Sequence record: SRR2962707_624
Direction: 5' to 3' (one strand)
Length of the DNA: 42,166 bases
Part shown: one piece after another, positions 14,459-20,600 of the stretch
Layout: each line of letters begins with the position of its first letter
Position numbering within the stretch: the stretch's first letter is position 1
Program-made: the position numbers and the translations under genes
The notes under the pieces: model-generated
Databases searched by the model: none
Seen by the model: the letters and a program-made list of their open reading frames with translations, nothing else
What the model was told of the DNA's origin: nothing

Positions 14459-15025
14459 ATGGCGCGCCTTCCTTATCCCGATCCGGCGGACCTGCCGGAT
14501 GCGAGCCGCGAACTGCTCGAAGGCCTGCCGCAGCTCAACATCTTCCGCATGCTGGCGGGCAGCGGCCCTTCCTTCGTACCCTTCATGGCGCTCATCAACG
14601 CCTATCTGAACGAAGGGCTGCTCGACACGGAACTGCGTGAACTCGTGATCCTCCGCGTCGGCCATCTCTGCGGCTCGACCTATGAGTTGCACCAGCACCG
14701 CCGCGTGTCGCGAATGATCGGCATGAGCGCGGAACGGATCGAGGCGGCCGAAGGCGCGCTCCCCTCGCCTCTCCTCAGTGAGGCGGAGAACGCGGTTCTC
14801 GCCTTTACCGACGACCAGGTGGCGAACGTGAAGGCGGACGGCGCGCTGTTCGCCGCCGCGCGCAAGCACCTCGGCGATGCCGGCATGCAGGAACTCGTCA
14901 TCATCGTCGGCATCTATCTTCTCGTCTGCCGCTATCTGGAGACGCTGGAGATAGATATCGAGGAGACGGACATTGCGACGAGCGGCCTCGACGAAATCAG
15001 GCGGAGCATGAAGAGGCATGACTGA
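14459..15025 (+). CDS. Carboxymuconolactone decarboxylase/AhpD-like family protein (tandem paralogue)
   Basis: Motifs LNIFRMLA, LRELVILRVG..YELHQH and ELVIIVGIY. Collinear similarity to the preceding gene. Confidence 0.85.
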   Translation: MARLPYPDPADLPDASRELLEGLPQLNIFRMLAGSGPSFVPFMALINAYLNEGLLDTELRELVILRVGHLCGSTYELHQHRRVSRMIGMSAERIEAAEGALPSPLLSEAENAVLAFTDDQVANVKADGALFAAARKHLGDAGMQELVIIVGIYLLVCRYLETLEIDIEETDIATSGLDEIRRSMKRHD

Positions 15026-15857
15026 GAAAGAGCCCTATGTGAAGCCGCTGCCGCCGGAATCGGAAGGCACGGCGCCGGGACGCGGGCGGCTCAAGGGCCG
15101 TCGCATCCTTGTCGTCGGCGGCGGCCAGCGCGTCCTCGACGCGGCGAGCGATCCGGTCGGCAATGGCCGCGCCATGTCGCTGCTCTTTGCGCGCGAAGGC
15201 GCGGAGGTGGCCGTCGCCGACATGAACCTGAAATCGGCGGAAGAAACAGTCGCGCAGATCGTGAAGGTGGGTGGCAAGGCCCATGCCATCGAGACAGACA
15301 TCTCGAAGCCGGACGACATCGCCGCGATGATCGGAGAAGCTGAGACGGCGCTCGGCACGCTGGACGGGCTCGTCCTCAATGTCGGCATCGGCGTCGGCGG
15401 GCTCGGCCTCCAGGGCGCGGAGCCGGACGACTGGGACAAGGTGCTGGCCGTGAACCTGCGCGGGCCGATGCTCTGCTGCAAGGCGGCGCTGCCGAGGCTG
15501 GCCGACGGCTCGCCTATCGTTTTCATTTCGTCGATTGCGGGGCTCATCGCGGGCTCGCGCCTGCCGGCCTATGACGCATCCAAGGCCGCGCTTGGCGGGC
15601 TGATGCGGCATGTCGCGCTTGAAGGATCGCGGCGCGGCATCCGCGCGAACATCGTCGCGCCGGGCCTCGTCGACACGCCGCTCGGCCGCGTGGCGACGCA
15701 AGGGCGGCCCTCGCGCGGGCGCACGCCCGTTCCCTTCGGGCGGCAGGCGACGGGATGGGAGATCGCCTATGCGGCGCTCTTTCTCGTCTCCGACGAAAGC
15801 GTTTACGTCACCGCGCAGACGCTCGCCGTCGACAGCGGCATGACGGGCATTTCCTGA
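15018..15857 (+). CDS. SDR-family oxidoreductase
   Basis: Motifs GNGRA, NVGI, ISS, YDASK, IRANIVAPGLVDT and LAVDSG. Overlaps the upstream stop. Confidence 0.92.
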   Translation: MTEKEPYVKPLPPESEGTAPGRGRLKGRRILVVGGGQRVLDAASDPVGNGRAMSLLFAREGAEVAVADMNLKSAEETVAQIVKVGGKAHAIETDISKPDDIAAMIGEAETALGTLDGLVLNVGIGVGGLGLQGAEPDDWDKVLAVNLRGPMLCCKAALPRLADGSPIVFISSIAGLIAGSRLPAYDASKAALGGLMRHVALEGSRRGIRANIVAPGLVDTPLGRVATQGRPSRGRTPVPFGRQATGWEIAYAALFLVSDESVYVTAQTLAVDSGMTGIS

Positions 15858-15860
15858 GCT

Positions 15861-17000
15861 TCAGGTCGCGGGACCATAACCGAAGTAATGCGCGATGGGC
15901 GCCGTGCGGTCGCGGATCGCATGGAGCTCGTCGGGCAAGAAATGCGGCTCGTAATAGCCCGGTGGATGAAGGCGCGAGCGCGCCCGCTCGACGATCTCGT
16001 CCGATACGTCCAGACGGCAATGATCGAGGATGCGGCGCATCTTTTCCGCAGGCCGCTCGCAGACGTCTTCGTAGCGGACGAACAAGACGGCGTCCGATAG
16101 TGCGGGGTTCATGTCGCAACGCTCGGCGACATAGCCATAAACCTCCGCCCATTGCAGCGCCCAGCCCTCCGCCTCGCGGCCTTCCGACCAGAGTTCGGCG
16201 ACCGTTGCTGCCACAGACTCGCTGCCGCAATTGATCGGCACGCGGTCGAGACCGAATTCGAAATGGCCTGTATGCGCGAGATGCGCGCGGGCTTCGGGAT
16301 GCTCCACCTCGCCCTGCACGAACAGCCGGTGTTGCTTCATCAGCGAGGCGACGTGCCAGACCGGTCCGCGAATGGGCACGACGAAGCGGGCATCGGGAAA
16401 GAGCTTCAGGAGATACTCGAGCCGCGTCACATTGTAGTTCGCCTTGGCGAGATAGCGCATGCCGTCGCGCAGGAAGAGAAGTTTGCGGATATGCGCGCTG
16501 AGGAAGGCCTCGAACTCGGGATGCGATGCTTCCTGCGTAAAGGTCTCGTCCCAGAGGCGCTTGTGGAGATGAGGAAAGAAATTCATCCAGACCGGCTCCT
16601 CGAAAGCCTCGGGACTTTCGGACGTCACATAGATCCCGTCCTTGTGCGCGCGCTCGGCGGGCGCTTCCTGCTTGCCCGGTATGTAGTCGACGAGCTTGTT
16701 CCACAGGATCGGCGTGAACACCGGCGGGAAATCGCGGTAGCGCTGCGTGACGACCTGCGGATGATCCGCGAGAAGTTCGAGAAGAACGGTGCTGCCGCTG
16801 CGCGCAAGACCGCTGATCCAGACCGGCGACGTGACCGGAATATCGTCGAAGCGATCCTCGAACAGGCGTGTCTCCATTTTTGCGAGCGACTGCATCAGCT
16901 TCGGCCGCTCGTAGAGGATACGGCCGAGCCGGTCCATCCAGGGCGTGACGGCGAATTTATCCGCAGGCGAGGAGGCGGGAGAGGAGGCCGCGTTGCTCAT
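15861..17000 (-). CDS. PAPS-dependent sulfotransferase family protein (cytoplasmic)
   Basis: 5'-PSB loop ISGLARSGSTVLLELLADHP, YLAKAN, LFPDARFVVPIRGP..VASL (3'-PB) and FVRYEDVC. No signal peptide. ATGA overlap with the upstream gene. Confidence 0.9.
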   Translation of the reverse strand: MSNAASSPASSPADKFAVTPWMDRLGRILYERPKLMQSLAKMETRLFEDRFDDIPVTSPVWISGLARSGSTVLLELLADHPQVVTQRYRDFPPVFTPILWNKLVDYIPGKQEAPAERAHKDGIYVTSESPEAFEEPVWMNFFPHLHKRLWDETFTQEASHPEFEAFLSAHIRKLLFLRDGMRYLAKANYNVTRLEYLLKLFPDARFVVPIRGPVWHVASLMKQHRLFVQGEVEHPEARAHLAHTGHFEFGLDRVPINCGSESVAATVAELWSEGREAEGWALQWAEVYGYVAERCDMNPALSDAVLFVRYEDVCERPAEKMRRILDHCRLDVSDEIVERARSRLHPPGYYEPHFLPDELHAIRDRTAPIAHYFGYGPAT

Positions 17001-17722
17001 GCGATCTTTCCGACTTTCTTGATGATGAGGGAGAAGGCGAGAAAGAGCGCGAAGAAGAGCGCTTCCCAACCGCGCATCCAGGAGGGCCCGAAAGGCACGA
17101 CCTCGAACGCCGGGAGACGGACTTCAACACGCTCCACCGGCACACCATCGGGCAGATACCCTGCCGGATTGGCGATGAACCAGTTCCACCAGCGGTATTT
17201 CTCGATGACGGGCACGGGCGCCTTCATCGGCACATCGGAAACGACAACGCCTTCCGGCTCGCGCACCACGACGCGGCGATCCGCAGCGCCATTTCCGATG
17301 ATCGCAGCGTGAAATCCCTCAGGCGCGGCTTGCGCGGGCGCATGGGCATTTTCCGGTGGAAAGCGATAGCCGTAATCGTTCGAGAGCCAGACGATGAGCG
17401 CGATGATGGGAAGCGAGGCGGCAAGCGCCGGCGGCAGGGCAAGCCAGAGGCGCGATCCCGCCGCGCGAAACATGCGGGCGATCATCGGCCACGCCTCGTC
17501 CATCTCGCCGTCGAATGCGTTGAGTTCGCGCCGCGCGGCGAGAGCCTCGGCTTCCGATGCGGCAAGCCTCTTCTGCGGTGAGAGCAGCTTGTAGAGCCAC
17601 ATCGAAAGCCCGGCGGCGGCAAGCGCCCAGAGAAGAAGCCGCGCCGCAGGCGGAAGCGGCTGCAGCAACGTTTCCACCGCACGGAACAGCGGCGCCGGGA
17701 GATCGAAGAGGCCCATCGTCAT
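16997..17722 (-). CDS. Membrane protein, DUF106/EMC3/TMCO1 (Oxa1 superfamily)-like topology
   Basis: Amphipathic N-terminal helix, TM1 (LLLWALAAAGLSMWLY), charged helical segment, TM2 (LPPALAASLPIIALIVWL), large loop, TM3 ending GWEALFFALFLAFSLIIKKVGKIA. The CDS is well supported; the family call is by architecture only. Confidence 0.6.
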   Translation of the reverse strand: MTMGLFDLPAPLFRAVETLLQPLPPAARLLLWALAAAGLSMWLYKLLSPQKRLAASEAEALAARRELNAFDGEMDEAWPMIARMFRAAGSRLWLALPPALAASLPIIALIVWLSNDYGYRFPPENAHAPAQAAPEGFHAAIIGNGAADRRVVVREPEGVVVSDVPMKAPVPVIEKYRWWNWFIANPAGYLPDGVPVERVEVRLPAFEVVPFGPSWMRGWEALFFALFLAFSLIIKKVGKIA

Positions 17723-17731
17723 GACGCTCTC

Positions 17732-17989
17732 CTATCGCGCGGGCGAGGAATTCGCGTCTTCATGCGAGGCATGCCGTGCATTCGCAGCCTGCTTGCGGCG
17801 ACGCATCATGCGGCGGACCGGCCAGCCGACGATGAAAACGAGCGCGGCGCCAACTGCCATGACGACGCCGATGAGCGCGCCTACAACGCTGAGCCCGGCG
17901 CCCGGACCGACATAAGCCATGGCGGGACTGGCAAGGGCGAACACCGCTGCGAAGCTCGCGAGGAACAAGGTCTTGTGTTTCGCAATCAT
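17732..17989 (-). CDS. Small membrane protein with signal peptide and YxGPG motif (85 aa)
   Basis: Sec signal ending PAMA, then YVGPGAG, one TM helix and a basic tail RRMMRRRK. AGGAG RBS and ATGA overlap with the upstream gene. Confidence 0.85.
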   Translation of the reverse strand: MIAKHKTLFLASFAAVFALASPAMAYVGPGAGLSVVGALIGVVMAVGAALVFIVGWPVRRMMRRRKQAANARHASHEDANSSPAR

Positions 17990-19401
17990 CTTCTTCGTAC
18001 TCCTTCTTGCATGTCGCCCGAGGCGTATTCCGGTTTCGGCTCGAACGAGGGATCGAGTTCAGCGGGCACGTAGCGGCGGCCCCATGCGACGATCGGAATT
18101 TTCTTGTCGCCTTCGCCCCCGCGCACCGGGTTCACATATTCCCAGGCGATCTCGCCCTCGGGCGTGACTTCGAGAAGACGGCCTGCCTGAGATTCCGTTA
18201 TCAGCGTGTTGCCGTTCGACAGGCGCATCGCCTCCGAGCGCAGAACGCTCTTCAACGGATCTTCCTTCGTCCCTTCGTAGGCCCACACGATTTCCATCGT
18301 CTCGGGATTGAACTCGATGACCCGCGATCCGCCGGGACCGTTGTAGTTTCCGTTGTTGTCGAACAGGAGAACATTGCCGTTCGCGAGCGGTTCCGCATCG
18401 TGCTGCCCGACCCAGGGACCGAGCGTGCCCCAGACGATCTCTTCCGTTTTCGGGTCGAACACGGCAACGAGCTTCAGATTGCGAATGCTGAGCATGAGAT
18501 CGCCCTCACGCGCCATGGACATTGCCTGTCCCGCTTCCGCGCCGACTTGCTTCACCGAATTCGTGTGAAGCGGGTCCTGCGCGGTGCGCCGCGAAAGGCC
18601 GCCGAGAAGCCACTTGAAGGGAGAGTTCGCGACGGCCTCAAGAAGCGAGACGCGCTTCTCGACTTCACCATCGGGCGACAGGATGACGAGGAAGTCCTCG
18701 ATGAGCGGCGTTTCGAGCCCTTGTCCCTCGACCGGCTCGTGGCGCATCTCGTGCGTGAGCGCGTAGATCGTGCCGTCCGCGCCGACCTCGACATCGTGAT
18801 GCGCGCGTTCGTCGAGATAGCTCCAGATGACGTTTGAATTCTTGTCGAGCTTGACGAGCCCAAGGCCCCAGGGCGTGTCGCCGGAGCCCTCATAGACGGC
18901 GAGCAGATCGCCATTCGGATACATGTAGCTTTTGCGGATATAGATATGAGGGCCGAGCGTGCCTGCCGCTTCAGTCTCCTCTGTCCATATCTTTTCCGGC
19001 GGCGTGAACCAGCGGTGAACTTCGCGGCCTTTCATGTCGACGAGAAAGGCGCTCGGCTCGTGCGACGAGGTGTAAAGCGTGTAGCCTTCAAGCGCGGTGT
19101 CGGGGTCGTGCGCGACGACACCCTTGTCTTCACCGCGCGCGTCGTACCAGAGATCTGTCTGGTACCGGTCGCCGAATTGCGTCGCCTGCGCATATAGCGC
19201 ACCCGCGGCATCATGCGCATTCGTCAGCAGCTTGTAAGGCGGCACGCGCGCAAGCACGACCCATGCGCCGATGAGGAAGGCGATCAGAGCTATGGAAAAC
19301 ACGAAGAAGGCAGGAGCGACCCACCCGCCATTCGGGTCTTCGCTCGTTTCATCGCGGGACTGGCTTTGAAAGGAATCCGACTCGGCGTGCCGATAGGTCA
19401 T
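17986..19401 (-). CDS. Arylsulfotransferase (ASST)-family beta-propeller, N-terminal membrane anchor
   Basis: One N-terminal TM. His motifs AHHDV, LHTNSV and QHDA, plus NGNVLLFDN and RLSNGNTLITES propeller repeats. Confidence 0.88.
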   Translation of the reverse strand: MTYRHAESDSFQSQSRDETSEDPNGGWVAPAFFVFSIALIAFLIGAWVVLARVPPYKLLTNAHDAAGALYAQATQFGDRYQTDLWYDARGEDKGVVAHDPDTALEGYTLYTSSHEPSAFLVDMKGREVHRWFTPPEKIWTEETEAAGTLGPHIYIRKSYMYPNGDLLAVYEGSGDTPWGLGLVKLDKNSNVIWSYLDERAHHDVEVGADGTIYALTHEMRHEPVEGQGLETPLIEDFLVILSPDGEVEKRVSLLEAVANSPFKWLLGGLSRRTAQDPLHTNSVKQVGAEAGQAMSMAREGDLMLSIRNLKLVAVFDPKTEEIVWGTLGPWVGQHDAEPLANGNVLLFDNNGNYNGPGGSRVIEFNPETMEIVWAYEGTKEDPLKSVLRSEAMRLSNGNTLITESQAGRLLEVTPEGEIAWEYVNPVRGGEGDKKIPIVAWGRRYVPAELDPSFEPKPEYASGDMQEGVRRR

Positions 19402-19619
19402 TGTTTTTCTGCCTACTGCGATCCGCCCAAGGGGATCGAAGCGCCCGGGCATGGCGAGAAAAAGACCGAAGCGGGGCATTAACGGGGCGGGCCTGCATTT
19501 TCAGGACTGTGCTCTTCGCATCTGCACGCAAGCACATGCACGCCAAATCCGCCGTTAAGAACTTGATACAAACGCCGCCGCATTCGACACTCGGAAAACC
19601 AAACACCTGGGGGGAAATC

Positions 19620-20600
19620 ATGGGTCTCGGTCTCAGCCGCTTTCAATACACGAAGGGCCTGCACGATCTCGGCAATGGCGGCTACGCCTGGCTGCAGCCG
19701 GATGGCGGCTGGGGCTGGTCGAATGCGGGTCTCGTCGTCGATCAAGGCGAGAGCTTCCTGATCGACACGCTGTTCGACGTACCGCTGACGAAGGAAATGC
19801 TCGACGCGATGCGCAAGGCCGAGCCGAAAGCGGCGGCGAAGATCGGCACCCTCGTCAACACGCATCACAATGGCGACCATTGCAACGGCAACGAATGCTG
19901 CCATGGCGCCGAAATCATCGCGCACAAGCTCGCAGTCGAAGGTATGCGTCACGAACCGCCGGCGCTGCTCGCGGGCTTCCTCGACATGGCGCCGGAGCTC
20001 GGCGACCTCGGAAGATATGTGACGCAATGTTTTGGGCCCTTCGACTTCAAGGGCGTGACGCAGACGCTGCCGACCACGACTTTCGAGACTGAACTGACAC
20101 GGCATGTCGGGTCCAAGGAAATCCGCATCATGCATGTCGGTCCCGCGCATACGCCGGGCGATGCGCTCGTGTATGTCCCCGCCGACAAGACCGTCTTCAC
20201 CGGCGACATTCTTTTCATCGAAGGCCATCCCATCATGTGGGAGGGACCGGTTTCAAACTGGATCGATGCCTGCGACCGGATCATCGCGATGGACGTGGAA
20301 ACAGTGGTGCCGGGCCACGGGCCGATTACGGGCAAGAACGGTGTGAAGGCGGTGCGCGACTATCTCGTCTATATCCGCGATGAGGCGAGGAAGCGCCACG
20401 ATGCCGGCCTCACCGCTTTCGACGCCGCCCTCGATATCGACATGACGGATTACGACAGCTGGGGCGACGGCGAGCGGATCGTCGTCAATGTCTCGACGCT
20501 CTACAAGGAGTTTTCGGGCGACGACACGCCGAACGATGTGCCGACGATCTTCGGTCAGATGGCGGAACTCACAAAACGGCAGGGCCGCCTGAGAAGCTGA
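19620..20600 (+). CDS. MBL-fold metallo-hydrolase (cyclase-like)
   Basis: Motifs GWSNAG, IDT, NTHHNGDHCNGN, AHTPGD, FTGD and VPGHGP. Confidence 0.92.
   Translation: MGLGLSRFQYTKGLHDLGNGGYAWLQPDGGWGWSNAGLVVDQGESFLIDTLFDVPLTKEMLDAMRKAEPKAAAKIGTLVNTHHNGDHCNGNECCHGAEIIAHKLAVEGMRHEPPALLAGFLDMAPELGDLGRYVTQCFGPFDFKGVTQTLPTTTFETELTRHVGSKEIRIMHVGPAHTPGDALVYVPADKTVFTGDILFIEGHPIMWEGPVSNWIDACDRIIAMDVETVVPGHGPITGKNGVKAVRDYLVYIRDEARKRHDAGLTAFDAALDIDMTDYDSWGDGERIVVNVSTLYKEFSGDDTPNDVPTIFGQMAELTKRQGRLRS

What the first reader, a model, noticed from the sequence alone, without database searches (positions are those of the whole stretch)
17732..17989. Small membrane peptide whose predicted mature N-terminus is its only tyrosine (AMA|YVGPGAG)
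Seen: a signal peptide ending in an A-x-A site, then Tyr26 (the only Tyr in 85 aa), a GPGAG flexible linker, one Gly/Ala/Val-rich TM helix and a very basic stop-transfer tail. Inference: this presents a lone phenol on a short tether at the membrane surface, as expected of a group-transfer carrier or swinging arm rather than an enzyme. From memory (unverified), similar YxGPG/YxDPG peptides recur beside sulfatase-fold and other envelope-modifying enzymes, which would make this a general carrier family.
Basis: partly seen in the sequence, partly recalled or inferred. Interest (0 to 1): 0.75.

Follow-up and report, generated by a model that had tools for sequence, protein, structure and literature searches.

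The report
Tyrosine-tipped membrane peptide in sulfation cassette
A small, widely conserved membrane peptide that exposes one never-changing tyrosine at the outer face of the inner membrane sits in a four-gene sulfation operon and always travels with a YidC/TMCO1-like membrane protein, which suggests (not proves) a peptide-borne route for carrying sulfate across the membrane.

Summary
The 85-aa ORF (17732-17989, minus strand) is real and as described: Sec-type leader ending A-M-A, then Tyr26 (its only Tyr), GPGAG, one TM helix and a WPVRRMMRRRK stop-transfer. It belongs to a large unannotated family (3200 hits at E<=1e-3). Tyr is kept in every member seen, including ones found without using the motif. 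The gene is second in a self-contained, translationally coupled cassette: membrane-anchored ASST-type aryl-sulfotransferase, peptide, a 3-TM protein whose confident model best matches TMCO1/YidC/Get1, and a cytoplasmic PAPS-type sulfotransferase of the Stf1/Stf9/TPST clade (all four in order in 60 of 70 loci). The same Tyr module is fused in front of cytoplasmic AlkP-superfamily enzymes elsewhere, again beside the Oxa1-like protein (70 of 80 loci). That protein, not any one enzyme, is its constant partner. Favoured mechanism (about 0.4): the processed peptide packs against the Oxa1-like protein and offers its N-terminal phenol to the periplasmic ASST as a tethered sulfuryl acceptor/donor, possibly pre-loaded by the TPST-like enzyme. 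A purely structural role is nearly as likely. No modification of Tyr26 was shown.

The parts
17732..17989 (-). Gene of the 85-aa pre-peptide, the finding itself
   Evidence: ORF listing. 39 homologues. Profile search gave 3200 hits at E<=1e-3. pN/pS is 0.03-0.26.
17915..17989 (-). Sec-type leader, residues 1-25, ending P-A-M-A; predicted signal peptidase I site after Ala25
   Evidence: The sequence is variable but n/h/c features and A-x-A are conserved in 186 members. Cleavage was not measured.
17894..17914 (-). Y26-V-G-P-G-A-G32, the predicted mature N-terminal periplasmic tail. The Tyr codon TAT is at 17912-17914.
   Evidence: Y26, G28, P29 and G30 have zero entropy in 186 sequences. A31 and G32 are each kept in 184 of 186.
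17822..17893 (-). Transmembrane helix, residues 33-56, with a conserved small-residue face: S34, A38, G41, A45, A49, F52, W56
   Evidence: Per-position entropy shows a 3-4 residue periodicity. Hydropathy segment.
17792..17824 (-). W56-P57-V-R59-R-M-M-R-R-R-K66 stop-transfer at the cytoplasmic face
   Evidence: P57 is kept in 186 of 186, W56 in 183 of 186, R59 in 184 of 186. Positive-inside rule.
17986..19479 (-). ASST-type aryl-sulfotransferase beta-propeller with one N-terminal TM anchor (about residues 55-77). Its stop overlaps the peptide start (ATGA).
   Evidence: PF14269 at E 5.7e-31 and PF05935 at 2.8e-8. Its profile hits the Streptomyces ASST structure 9kf6 at E 3.5e-8. H155, H227, H228, H305, N307, R333 and H360 are invariant. 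Directly upstream of the peptide in 69 of 75 loci.
16997..17722 (-). 241-aa, 3-TM Oxa1/TMCO1/YidC-like membrane protein with a cytoplasmic helical hairpin and a roughly 100-aa beta-rich periplasmic insert. It starts 9 nt after the peptide stop.
   Evidence: AF2 model with pLDDT 95.1. Best structural match is TMCO1 7tut_8 at Z 10.8; YidC, Get1 and WRB are at Z 7.0-7.6. Directly downstream of the peptide in 73 of 78 loci. Homologous partner in the PF01663 systems: hhalign 98.9%.
15861..17069 (-). Cytoplasmic PAPS-type sulfotransferase. The longest ORF starts at TTG 17069. The likely start is the ATG at 16998-17000, which overlaps the upstream stop as ATGA.
   Evidence: PF13469 at E 5.4e-21. Best profile hits in the PDB are TPST1 at 3.9e-11, tick TPST, Stf1 and TPST2. 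Foldseek ranks Stf1, Stf9, then the TPSTs. ATGA overlap. Residues 1-36 have pLDDT below 50.

Best explanation
The gene encodes a pre-peptide that is inserted as a hairpin and cut by signal peptidase after Ala25. The product is a 60-aa single-pass peptide, N-terminus out and C-terminus in. Its periplasmic part is only Y-V-G-P-G-A-G.

Through a conserved small-residue face of its helix and the W-P-x-R collar, it is the fixed partner of the adjacent Oxa1/TMCO1-like 3-TM protein. That protein inserts it and/or holds it.

In this cassette the free phenol of the N-terminal Tyr serves as a membrane-tethered substrate of the membrane-anchored periplasmic ASST, an enzyme class that moves sulfuryl groups between phenols. 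The peptide would then be the phenolic relay of a two-step sulfation. The cytoplasmic TPST-related, PAPS-dependent sulfotransferase loads Tyr26 on the pre-peptide before insertion. The Oxa1-like protein takes the short sulfo-Tyr loop across the membrane. The ASST passes the sulfate to an unknown envelope acceptor.

Shown: the anatomy, the invariance, the cassette, the family assignments of the neighbours, and the module's co-occurrence with the Oxa1-like protein. Inferred: cleavage, topology, physical association, any sulfation of Tyr26, and the direction of transfer.
For: - **Tyr invariance.** Tyr26 and G-P-G are absolutely invariant in 186 of 186 members, whereas the other interfacial aromatic, W56, tolerates Y/F in 3 of 186. 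Tyr is also kept in 77 of 77 fused modules where the next residue varies A/V/I, and in 2 of 2 divergent systems found via the neighbour gene.
- **Canonical leader** with A-x-A in 186 members.
- **Cassette.** ASST, peptide, 3-TM protein and sulfotransferase lie in this order in 60 of 70 loci with room, across alpha- and gammaproteobacteria. Two of the ten exceptions carry a divergent 3-TM protein in the same slot. Start/stop overlaps are ATGA.
- **Self-contained.** No further gene family occurs in more than 13 of 80 loci, so no small-molecule phenol pathway or transporter is encoded.
- **ASST identity.** PF14269 at 5.7e-31; the profile hits 9kf6 at 3.5e-8; H...HxN...R...H is invariant and falls in the same order as the EcAST site residues His252, His356, Asn358, Arg374, His436 given in PMC13426309 (passage).
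- **Tyr peptides as AST substrates.** That review's table lists tyrosine-containing peptides among AST acceptors (passage).
- **Precedent.** A PAPS enzyme charges a phenolic shuttle for an ASST-type enzyme in the Cpz8/Cpz4 system (passage in PMC4257720).
- **Sulfotransferase relatives.** Its closest solved relatives by profile are protein-tyrosine sulfotransferases, TPST1 at 3.9e-11; TPSTs rank 3-13 by Foldseek.
- **PAPS supply.** APS kinase is present in 5 of 5 cassette genomes searched.
- **Partner.** The AF2 model has pLDDT 95.1; TMCO1 at Z 10.8 is the only chain of 48,161 with Z>=8, and YidC, Get1 and WRB follow; N-out/C-in charge pattern; 6 of 44 distant relatives touch PF01956; one member is named DUF106-containing by UniRef.
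- **Co-travel.** The module and the Oxa1-like gene travel together in a second system, 70 of 80 loci, and the two partner families are homologous at 98.9%.
- **Topology.** The natural fusion P0190 (module, basic loop, second TM, ASST domain) places the ASST domain on the same side as the Tyr.
Against: - **No chemistry observed.** No sulfation or any other modification of Tyr26 was seen. Everything about it is inference.
- **Module without ASST.** In the PF01663 systems there is no ASST, and a small sulfotransferase lies nearby in only 13 of 80 loci. So the invariant Tyr must serve something more general than this sulfation pair. There the fused enzyme lies across the membrane from the Tyr.
- **Cost.** If Tyr is loaded only before insertion, each peptide carries one sulfate, which is costly.
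- **Sequence context.** No acidic residues flank Tyr26, unlike the usual sites of eukaryotic TPSTs (recalled).
- **Sulfotransferase assignment is loose.** By structure the mycobacterial Stf1 and Stf9, whose substrates were not looked up here, rank above the TPSTs.
- **ASST orientation is not settled.** Flanking charge is 2.1 K/R before the TM against 1.5 after, n=34.
- **Short partner forms.** Six loci (Marinobacter, Kordiimonas and one unnamed isolate) have a 154-156-aa partner lacking the beta insert and TM3. A complete three-helix insertase core is therefore not always needed.
- **Fold match is modest.** Z of 10.8 for a helical protein is below the level the tool calls safe, and Foldseek found nothing at E<=0.001.
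Confidence: 0.4

Rival explanations
1. Purely structural small subunit or adaptor. The processed peptide, or the same module fused to an enzyme, is a transmembrane partner of the Oxa1-like scaffold. The Tyr hydroxyl, the G-P-G turn and the W-P-x-R collar are packing and recognition elements. No group is ever attached to Tyr. The sulfate carrier, if any, is a lipid or small phenol supplied from outside the cassette and moved by the Oxa1-like protein.
For: The module always travels with the Oxa1-like gene whatever the enzymes: 73 of 78 and 70 of 80 loci. One whole helical face is conserved. In 117 of the 120 longer proteins listed the module precedes a PF01663 enzyme domain, where it looks like an anchor. 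Eukaryotic Oxa1-superfamily members work with a second small membrane subunit (recalled). YidC is described as a lipid scramblase in the abstract of PMC11997395 (search listing).
Against: An interfacial aromatic or turn residue normally tolerates Phe or Trp, yet none was seen in 186 + 77 + 2 sequences. The A-x-A site is kept even when the module is internal, as in P0197 (AHA|Y). The cassette encodes an enzyme whose substrates are phenols, yet no other phenol source.
Confidence: 0.33
2. Client only. The Oxa1-like protein is a dedicated insertase needed once, to insert a leader-bearing hairpin with a very short loop, in the manner of M13 procoat with YidC. The mature peptide then acts elsewhere, for example as a regulator or anchor of the ASST or of the cytoplasmic sulfotransferase.
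For: The peptide has the procoat layout of leader, short loop, TM and basic tail. [quoted passage not shown] The partner's fold resembles these insertases.
Against: Bacteria already have YidC for such clients. A conserved helical face along the whole TM suggests a lasting contact. The short two-TM partner forms in six loci are unlikely to be insertases.
Confidence: 0.12
3. Sorting-signal-like tag. Motif, TM helix and Arg cluster mimic the tripartite signals cut by sortase- or exosortase-type enzymes. The peptide would be a minimal substrate or decoy of an unlinked processing enzyme.
For: The tripartite motif/TM/basic layout.
Against: The module lies directly after a leader or at the N-terminus of enzymes, not at a C-terminus. 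No protease-like gene is conserved nearby. Neither NCBIfam nor Pfam gave a match above cut-off for the peptide.
Confidence: 0.03

Closest known systems
Two-step sulfation in caprazamycin biosynthesis: Cpz8 (PAPS sulfotransferase), sulfated triketide pyrone, Cpz4 (ASST-type). Source: Tang et al. 2013 as cited and summarised in PMC4257720 (passage read). Cpz4 is also described in PMC13426309 (passages).
   Same: One gene cluster holds both a PAPS-dependent sulfotransferase and an ASST-type enzyme. That logic requires a phenol-like shuttle between them. The ASST here is nearest to the Streptomyces-type ASST structure 9kf6.
   Different: There the shuttle is a small molecule made by a type III polyketide synthase. 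Here no such gene is conserved, and the only phenol encoded is the invariant Tyr of a membrane peptide. The ASST is inferred to be periplasmic and the PAPS enzyme cytoplasmic, and a YidC/TMCO1-like protein is part of the set.
M13 procoat / Pf3 coat with YidC, and the Oxa1 superfamily (YidC, Get1, EMC3, TMCO1, archaeal DUF106 Ylp1). Source: PMC5868721 (passages read).
   Same: A small leader-bearing single-span protein with a very short translocated part and a basic tail, next to a protein with N-out/C-in topology, a three-TM core and a cytoplasmic helical hairpin between TM1 and TM2.
   Different: The partner is a dedicated extra gene beside its client. It carries a roughly 100-residue beta-rich insert between TM2 and TM3. 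It does not reach the Pfam PF01956 gathering score. PMC5868721 describes DUF106 proteins as archaeal and eukaryotic, whereas this one is bacterial.
Protein-tyrosine sulfotransferases (TPST1/2, tick TPST); bacterial RaxST with its peptide RaxX (recalled, no paper read)
   Same: A PF13469-type PAPS enzyme whose best profile matches among solved structures are TPSTs, encoded beside a small peptide with one critical Tyr.
   Different: Not a close TPST orthologue: Stf1 and Stf9 are as near or nearer by structure. Tyr26 has no acidic neighbours. The peptide is membrane-anchored rather than secreted. An ASST and an Oxa1-like protein accompany it.
Swinging-arm carrier proteins: acyl carrier protein, biotinyl and lipoyl domains (established knowledge)
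   Same: One reactive group on a flexible Gly/Pro-rich tether, offered to more than one enzyme.
   Different: Those carry a prosthetic group on Ser or Lys of a folded soluble domain and are recycled. Here it is a bare Tyr at a processed N-terminus on a TM helix. No modification is shown, and recycling across the membrane is hard to picture.
C-terminal sorting signals such as PEP-CTERM and LPXTG (established knowledge)
   Same: A short motif, then a TM helix, then an Arg/Lys cluster.
   Different: Its position is N-terminal or directly after a leader. No cognate sortase-type gene is present, and the TM helix has a conserved face.

Membership tests
Sec-type signal peptide cleaved by signal peptidase I | Positive n-region, hydrophobic h-region, helix breaker, small residues at -3 and -1 | tested here: met
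   Among 186 members, -1 is Ala in 184 and Gly in 2. Position -3 is A/V/S/G/L. A P/G/S breaker lies at -8..-4 in 184. The n-region is net positive in 172. Mean h-region hydropathy is 1.98. This is rule-based only; no predictor was run and no N-terminal sequencing exists.
   Only context is available: an invariant Tyr, a phenol-specific ASST and a TPST-related enzyme in the same operon. Mass spectrometry is needed.
Arylsulfate sulfotransferase (ASST), for the upstream gene | ASST beta-propeller domain | tested here: met
   PF14269 at E 5.7e-31, 108.5 bits against a cut-off of 27. The profile hits PDB 9kf6 at E 3.5e-8.
Arylsulfate sulfotransferase (ASST), for the upstream gene | Catalytic histidines and the sulfuryl-binding Asn/Arg | tested here: inconclusive
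   H228, H305-x-N307, R333 and H360 are invariant in 34 sequences. QHD aligns with QHD of 9kf6. Their order matches the EcAST residues listed in PMC13426309. No superposition was made.
Oxa1 superfamily (YidC/Get1/EMC3/TMCO1/DUF106), for the downstream 241-aa gene | [quoted passage not shown] | tested here: met
   AF2 helices at 25-47, 50-69, 74-117 and 219-238. The TM1-TM2 loop has 8.3 K/R, while the N-tail and the long loop are acidic, in the 19 of 36 sequences that gave three segments. TMCO1 matches at Z 10.8 over model residues 19-241.
Oxa1 superfamily (YidC/Get1/EMC3/TMCO1/DUF106), for the downstream 241-aa gene | Sequence match to PF01956 EMC3_TMCO1 above the gathering score | tested here: not met
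   The window protein has no Pfam match at E<=0.1. Among 44 distant relatives, 6 match at E<=0.1, best 1.4e-5; the one shown scores 17.6 bits against a cut-off of 27.1.
Oxa1 superfamily (YidC/Get1/EMC3/TMCO1/DUF106), for the downstream 241-aa gene | Lipid-exposed hydrophilic groove and insertase activity | not tested
Protein-tyrosine sulfotransferase, for the last gene | PAPS-binding sulfotransferase fold of the PF13469 type | tested here: met
   PF13469 at E 5.4e-21. GLARSGST loop. The profile hits TPST1 at 3.9e-11 and TPST2 at 1.6e-7. Foldseek gives probability 1.00 to Stf1, Stf9 and the TPSTs.
Protein-tyrosine sulfotransferase, for the last gene | Peptide-Tyr acceptor specificity | not testable with these tools
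   The nearest solved relatives include both TPSTs and the mycobacterial Stf1/Stf9. An assay is needed.
Sortase/exosortase-type sorting signal | C-terminal position and a cognate processing enzyme nearby | tested here: not met
   The module follows a leader or heads an enzyme. No conserved protease-like neighbour was found. NCBIfam gave no match above cut-off for the peptide.

The most novel reading that the evidence does not exclude
A ribosomally made, membrane-tethered tyrosine acts as a covalent sulfate carrier. A TPST-like enzyme loads it from PAPS in the cytoplasm. A dedicated bacterial TMCO1/YidC-like protein carries the sulfo-Tyr loop across the inner membrane. A periplasmic aryl-sulfotransferase unloads it onto envelope targets. 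This would be the first protein-borne sulfuryl carrier and a general answer to how bacteria could sulfate molecules outside the cytoplasm. The same Tyr module would serve AlkP-family enzyme pairs placed on both sides of the membrane.
Probability: 0.2. Interest if true: 0.9.

Novelty: new variant of a known kind. Interest (0 to 1): 0.72.

Why it matters
PAPS exists only in the cytoplasm. The review read here (PMC13426309) says the natural substrates and physiological roles of most bacterial aryl-sulfotransferases are unknown. This cassette pairs such an enzyme with a PAPS enzyme, a phenol on a membrane tether and a YidC/TMCO1-like protein. That makes one concrete answer testable in culturable, harmless marine bacteria such as Parvibaculum, Thalassospira, Marinobacter and Salinisphaera.

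Whatever the chemistry turns out to be, three things are useful in themselves:
- It defines an unannotated small-protein family with thousands of members.
- It identifies a bacterial relative of the EMC3/TMCO1/DUF106 branch of the Oxa1 superfamily. That branch is described as archaeal and eukaryotic in PMC5868721.
- It shows that the two always occur together, including in a second, soil-borne system built on AlkP-superfamily enzymes.

Tried and rejected
- **Complex prediction** of ASST 27-497, the 241-aa protein and peptide 26-85 gave no verdict (score 0.01). It is not evidence either way.
- **Sequencing runs:** no RNA holder is listed for the operon. Read laying was therefore not used, and expression remains untested.
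- **Pfam and NCBIfam on the peptide** gave only sub-threshold matches to membrane families (DUF3180, LapA_dom, MFS_1, CbiN and others). I read these as hydrophobic noise.
- **ESM Atlas** returned only 'hypothetical protein' clusters.
- **Foldseek against the PDB** for the 241-aa model had no match at E<=0.001. The TMCO1 match came from the VIA-align wide search.
- **phmmer against the PDB:** the ASST found nothing and the sulfotransferase found only E>=0.078. Profiles were needed.
- **Whole genome:** none is held for the window.
- **Earlier findings of this scan:** three look-ups returned nothing.
- **Literature:** no paper holds YVGPGAG, YIGPGAG or YAGPGAG. Searches on ASST + sulfotransferase + operon, Cpz4/two-step sulfation and DUF106/Oxa1 in bacteria listed nothing whose title or abstract describes this cassette. 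Supplements were closed and not seen.
- **Promoter/terminator scan** of 15500-20000 gave nothing above shuffles.
- **P0187**, a read-through ASST-peptide fusion, gives an impossible topology if the ASST is periplasmic. I treat it as a probable frameshift or gene-call artefact, not as evidence.
- **Limit of the profile search:** only the best 150 of its 3200 hits could be inspected, so a Tyr-to-Phe member among weaker hits is not excluded.
Full report
**The observation.** The minus strand carries an 85-codon ATG ORF at 17732-17989. Its product has a 25-residue leader (MIAKHKTLFLASFAAVFALASPAMA), then Tyr26, its only tyrosine, then VGPGAG, a 24-residue Gly/Ala/Val-rich helix, and WPVRRMMRRRK followed by a polar tail. 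An AAGGAG ribosome-binding site lies 10 nt upstream. The ATG overlaps the stop of the preceding gene as ATGA (sequence).

**The family.**
- A word-seeded search found 39 small homologues. They share invariant A23, Y26, G28, P29, G30, A31, G32, A38, W56, P57 and R59.
- A profile search that reads every protein of a library of 1.84 billion representatives found 3200 hits at E<=1e-3 and 1142 at E<=1e-10. The best 150 are all 71-145 aa long.
- In the pooled 186 sequences Tyr is present in 186. The motif is YVGPGAG in 152 and YIGPGAG in 29, with five single variants. Y26, G28, P29, G30 and P57 have zero entropy.
- The pre-Tyr segment varies in sequence but has signal-peptide features throughout: median 24 residues; -1 Ala in 184 and Gly in 2; -3 A/V/S/G/L; a helix breaker in 184; a positive n-region in 172.
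- In the helix, the low-entropy positions S34, A38, G41, A45, A49, F52 and W56 fall on one face.
- Against seven close relatives the 37-codon core has pN/pS of 0.03-0.26 with pS of 0.38-0.70. The frame is therefore under protein-level selection.
- No Pfam, NCBIfam or Atlas name exists for the family. No paper in the library holds the motif.

**The cassette.** A scan of one genome per species found 199 genomes with a relative. These are Parvibaculum, Salinisphaera, Thalassospira, Marinobacter, Alloalcanivorax, Litchfieldella, Woeseia, Chelativorans and others. The scan pattern contained the Tyr, so this set says nothing about Tyr itself. In the 80 loci kept, counting only loci with room on the relevant side:

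| Feature | Loci |
|---|---|
| ASST-type gene directly upstream | 69 of 75 |
| 241-aa membrane protein directly downstream | 73 of 78 |
| Sulfotransferase after that | 71 of 73 |
| All four in order | 60 of 70 |

- Two of the ten exceptions (L068, L076) have a divergent 229-239-aa three-TM protein in the same slot.
- No other gene family occurs in more than 13 of the 80 loci.
- In the window the genes are packed tightly. ASST and peptide overlap as ATGA. The next gene starts after a 9-nt gap. The sulfotransferase overlaps as ATGA if it starts at its 24th codon.

**The neighbours.**
- *Upstream gene.* It matches PF14269 at E 5.7e-31. Its profile hits 9kf6 at E 3.5e-8. A 2026 preprint describes 9kf6 as a Streptomyces ASST with the three histidines conserved (passage). 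H155, H227, H228, H305, N307, R333 and H360 are invariant in 34 orthologues. It has one N-terminal TM helix.
- *Last gene.* It matches PF13469 at E 5.4e-21 and has no hydrophobic segment. Its profile's best solved relatives are TPST1 (3.9e-11), tick TPST, Stf1 and TPST2. By Foldseek on a model of pLDDT 86.9 the order is Stf1, Stf9, then TPSTs at ranks 3-13.
- *PAPS supply.* APS kinase is present in 5 of 5 cassette genomes searched.
- *The 241-aa protein.* It has no Pfam or NCBIfam match but folds with pLDDT 95.1: helix 25-47, a helical hairpin at 50-117 whose end is TM2, a beta-rich stretch at 120-215, and helix 219-238.
  - Of 48,161 chains only TMCO1 (7tut_8) reaches Z>=8 (Z 10.8, rmsd 4.1, 138 residues). 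YidC (Z 7.6), Get1 (7.1) and WRB (7.0) also align over the whole length. The tool warns that such Z values are modest for helical proteins, and Foldseek gave nothing at E<=0.001.
  - Charge counts fit N-out/C-in with a cytoplasmic hairpin. That is the topology given for the Oxa1 superfamily in PMC5868721 (passages).
  - One family member is named 'DUF106 domain-containing' by UniRef.

**The module elsewhere.** A search among longer proteins listed 120 hits out of 406:

| Precomputed Pfam content | Proteins |
|---|---|
| PF01663 (AlkP superfamily) only, mostly about 700 aa | 100 |
| Sulfotransferase domains plus PF01663, mostly about 919 aa | 17 |
| ASST domains | 2 |
| TonB-receptor plug | 1 |

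- In the sequences read, the whole module (leader-like segment, A-x-A, YVGPGAG, helix, WPxR, Arg cluster) heads the PF01663 domain. In the 919-aa form it lies between the sulfotransferase and PF01663 domains.
- The enzyme domain follows the Arg cluster, so it should be cytoplasmic.
- In 80 metagenome loci of this type the module is YAGPGAG in 44, YVGPGAG in 23 and YIGPGAG in 10 ORFs: Tyr in 77 of 77. The 44 cannot have been seeded by the Tyr-motif pattern.
- In 70 of the 80 loci a gene homologous to the 241-aa protein lies alongside on the same strand. In the other ten the contig ends close to where the gene would be expected (coordinates).
- The two partner families align at 98.9% probability, E 1.3e-17. 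Six of 44 of the second family touch PF01956 EMC3_TMCO1 below threshold.
- A second PF01663 paralogue in these loci usually starts with a lipoprotein-type, Tat-type or other signal-like N-terminus: by my reading of the 15 printed, 8 lipobox-like, 2 Tat, 2 other. Sulfatase-type genes occur in 30 loci.
- A search with the partner profile in 401 sampled genomes found five hits. The four strong ones all have the module directly upstream. The two divergent ones read AQA|YIGPGPG and AFA|YVGPGPA.

**What this means.** The invariant unit is the Tyr module plus the Oxa1-like protein. The enzymes around them change. Both system types put one enzyme inside and a related or matching enzyme outside the membrane.
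- *Orientation of the ASST here.* It is inferred to face the periplasm for three reasons: it has a short N-terminal signal-anchor with no Arg cluster behind it; the natural fusion P0190 has the layout module, basic loop, second TM, ASST; and E. coli ASST is periplasmic (passage). The charge count alone is indecisive.
- *Consequence.* The processed N-terminal Tyr, the ASST active site and the beta-rich insert of the partner would then share one membrane surface.
- *Chemistry.* ASSTs move sulfuryl groups between phenols, and tyrosine peptides are listed among their acceptors (passage). The one understood case of a PAPS enzyme clustered with an ASST-type enzyme uses a phenolic shuttle between them (passage). 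The cassette encodes no other phenol.

I therefore favour the reading that Tyr26 is a tethered sulfuryl acceptor/donor of the ASST, docked to the Oxa1-like protein (about 0.4). Within that reading, the further step that the TPST-related enzyme loads it before insertion stands at about 0.2 overall.

**Against this reading.** Nothing shows a modification. The module also serves systems without an ASST. One sulfate per peptide is costly. Six loci have a shortened partner of 154-156 aa. A purely structural role for the module (about 0.33) explains the co-occurrence and the conserved helical face equally well. It is weaker only on the absolute ban on Phe or Trp at position 26 and on the kept A-x-A site.

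**Novelty.** The parts are of known kinds: signal peptide, ASST, PAPS sulfotransferase, Oxa1-like fold. The combination, the peptide family and a bacterial DUF106/TMCO1-like protein paired with it were not found in the libraries or papers searched. I rate it a new variant of a known kind, namely two-step sulfation and small-client/insertase pairs. There is a one-in-five chance that it is a new kind of protein-borne carrier.

Noticed in passing
window 16997-17722 (-): The 241-aa neighbour looks like a bacterial member of the EMC3/TMCO1/DUF106 branch of the Oxa1 superfamily, with a roughly 100-residue beta-rich insert between TM2 and TM3. PMC5868721 describes that branch as archaeal and eukaryotic. 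It has a conserved N-terminal MGLFDLPAPLF motif and a WWN...GNPAGYLP motif in the insert.
   Followed up: partly
L086-L165 (metagenome loci), e.g. L098:7004-12097: A second widespread system. The usual order is an exported PF01663 paralogue (lipobox-like or Tat start), an Oxa1-like gene, then the Tyr module fused to a cytoplasmic PF01663 enzyme. In L152-L165 the Oxa1-like gene lies downstream instead. Sulfatase+TPR genes occur in 30 of 80 loci, a small sulfotransferase in 13 of 80, and an inositol-monophosphatase/CysQ-type gene in 7.
   Followed up: partly
L035, L039, L055, L063 (three Marinobacter, one unnamed isolate); L037, L040 (Kordiimonas): The partner gene is only 154-156 aa (TM1, hairpin, TM2). 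It lacks the beta insert and third helix, and the sulfotransferase gene follows directly.
   Followed up: no
P0190 and P0187 (database proteins): P0190 is a natural fusion of the module, a basic loop, a second TM and an ASST domain. P0187 is an ASST read through into the peptide, whose topology would be inconsistent; it is probably a frameshift or gene-call artefact.
   Followed up: partly
P0188 (database protein, 582 aa): A TonB-receptor plug protein that ends in the Tyr module (AAYVGPGAGLS...WYPIKR). It is probably a truncated receptor gene run into a peptide gene.
   Followed up: no
window 19401-20600 (+) and 15018-15857 (+): The cassette is flanked by a metallo-beta-lactamase-fold gene (PF00753, E 3.9e-21) and a short-chain dehydrogenase (PF13561, E 8.8e-55). 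Close matches (86-96% identity) to these flanks occur only in the eight Parvibaculum/Rhodobiaceae-like loci, so they are not part of the system.
   Followed up: yes
window 15861-17069 (-): The longest ORF of the sulfotransferase starts at a TTG 73 nt inside the upstream gene. Residues 1-36 are modelled with pLDDT below 50. An ATG at 16998-17000 forms an ATGA overlap with the upstream stop and is the more likely start.
   Followed up: partly
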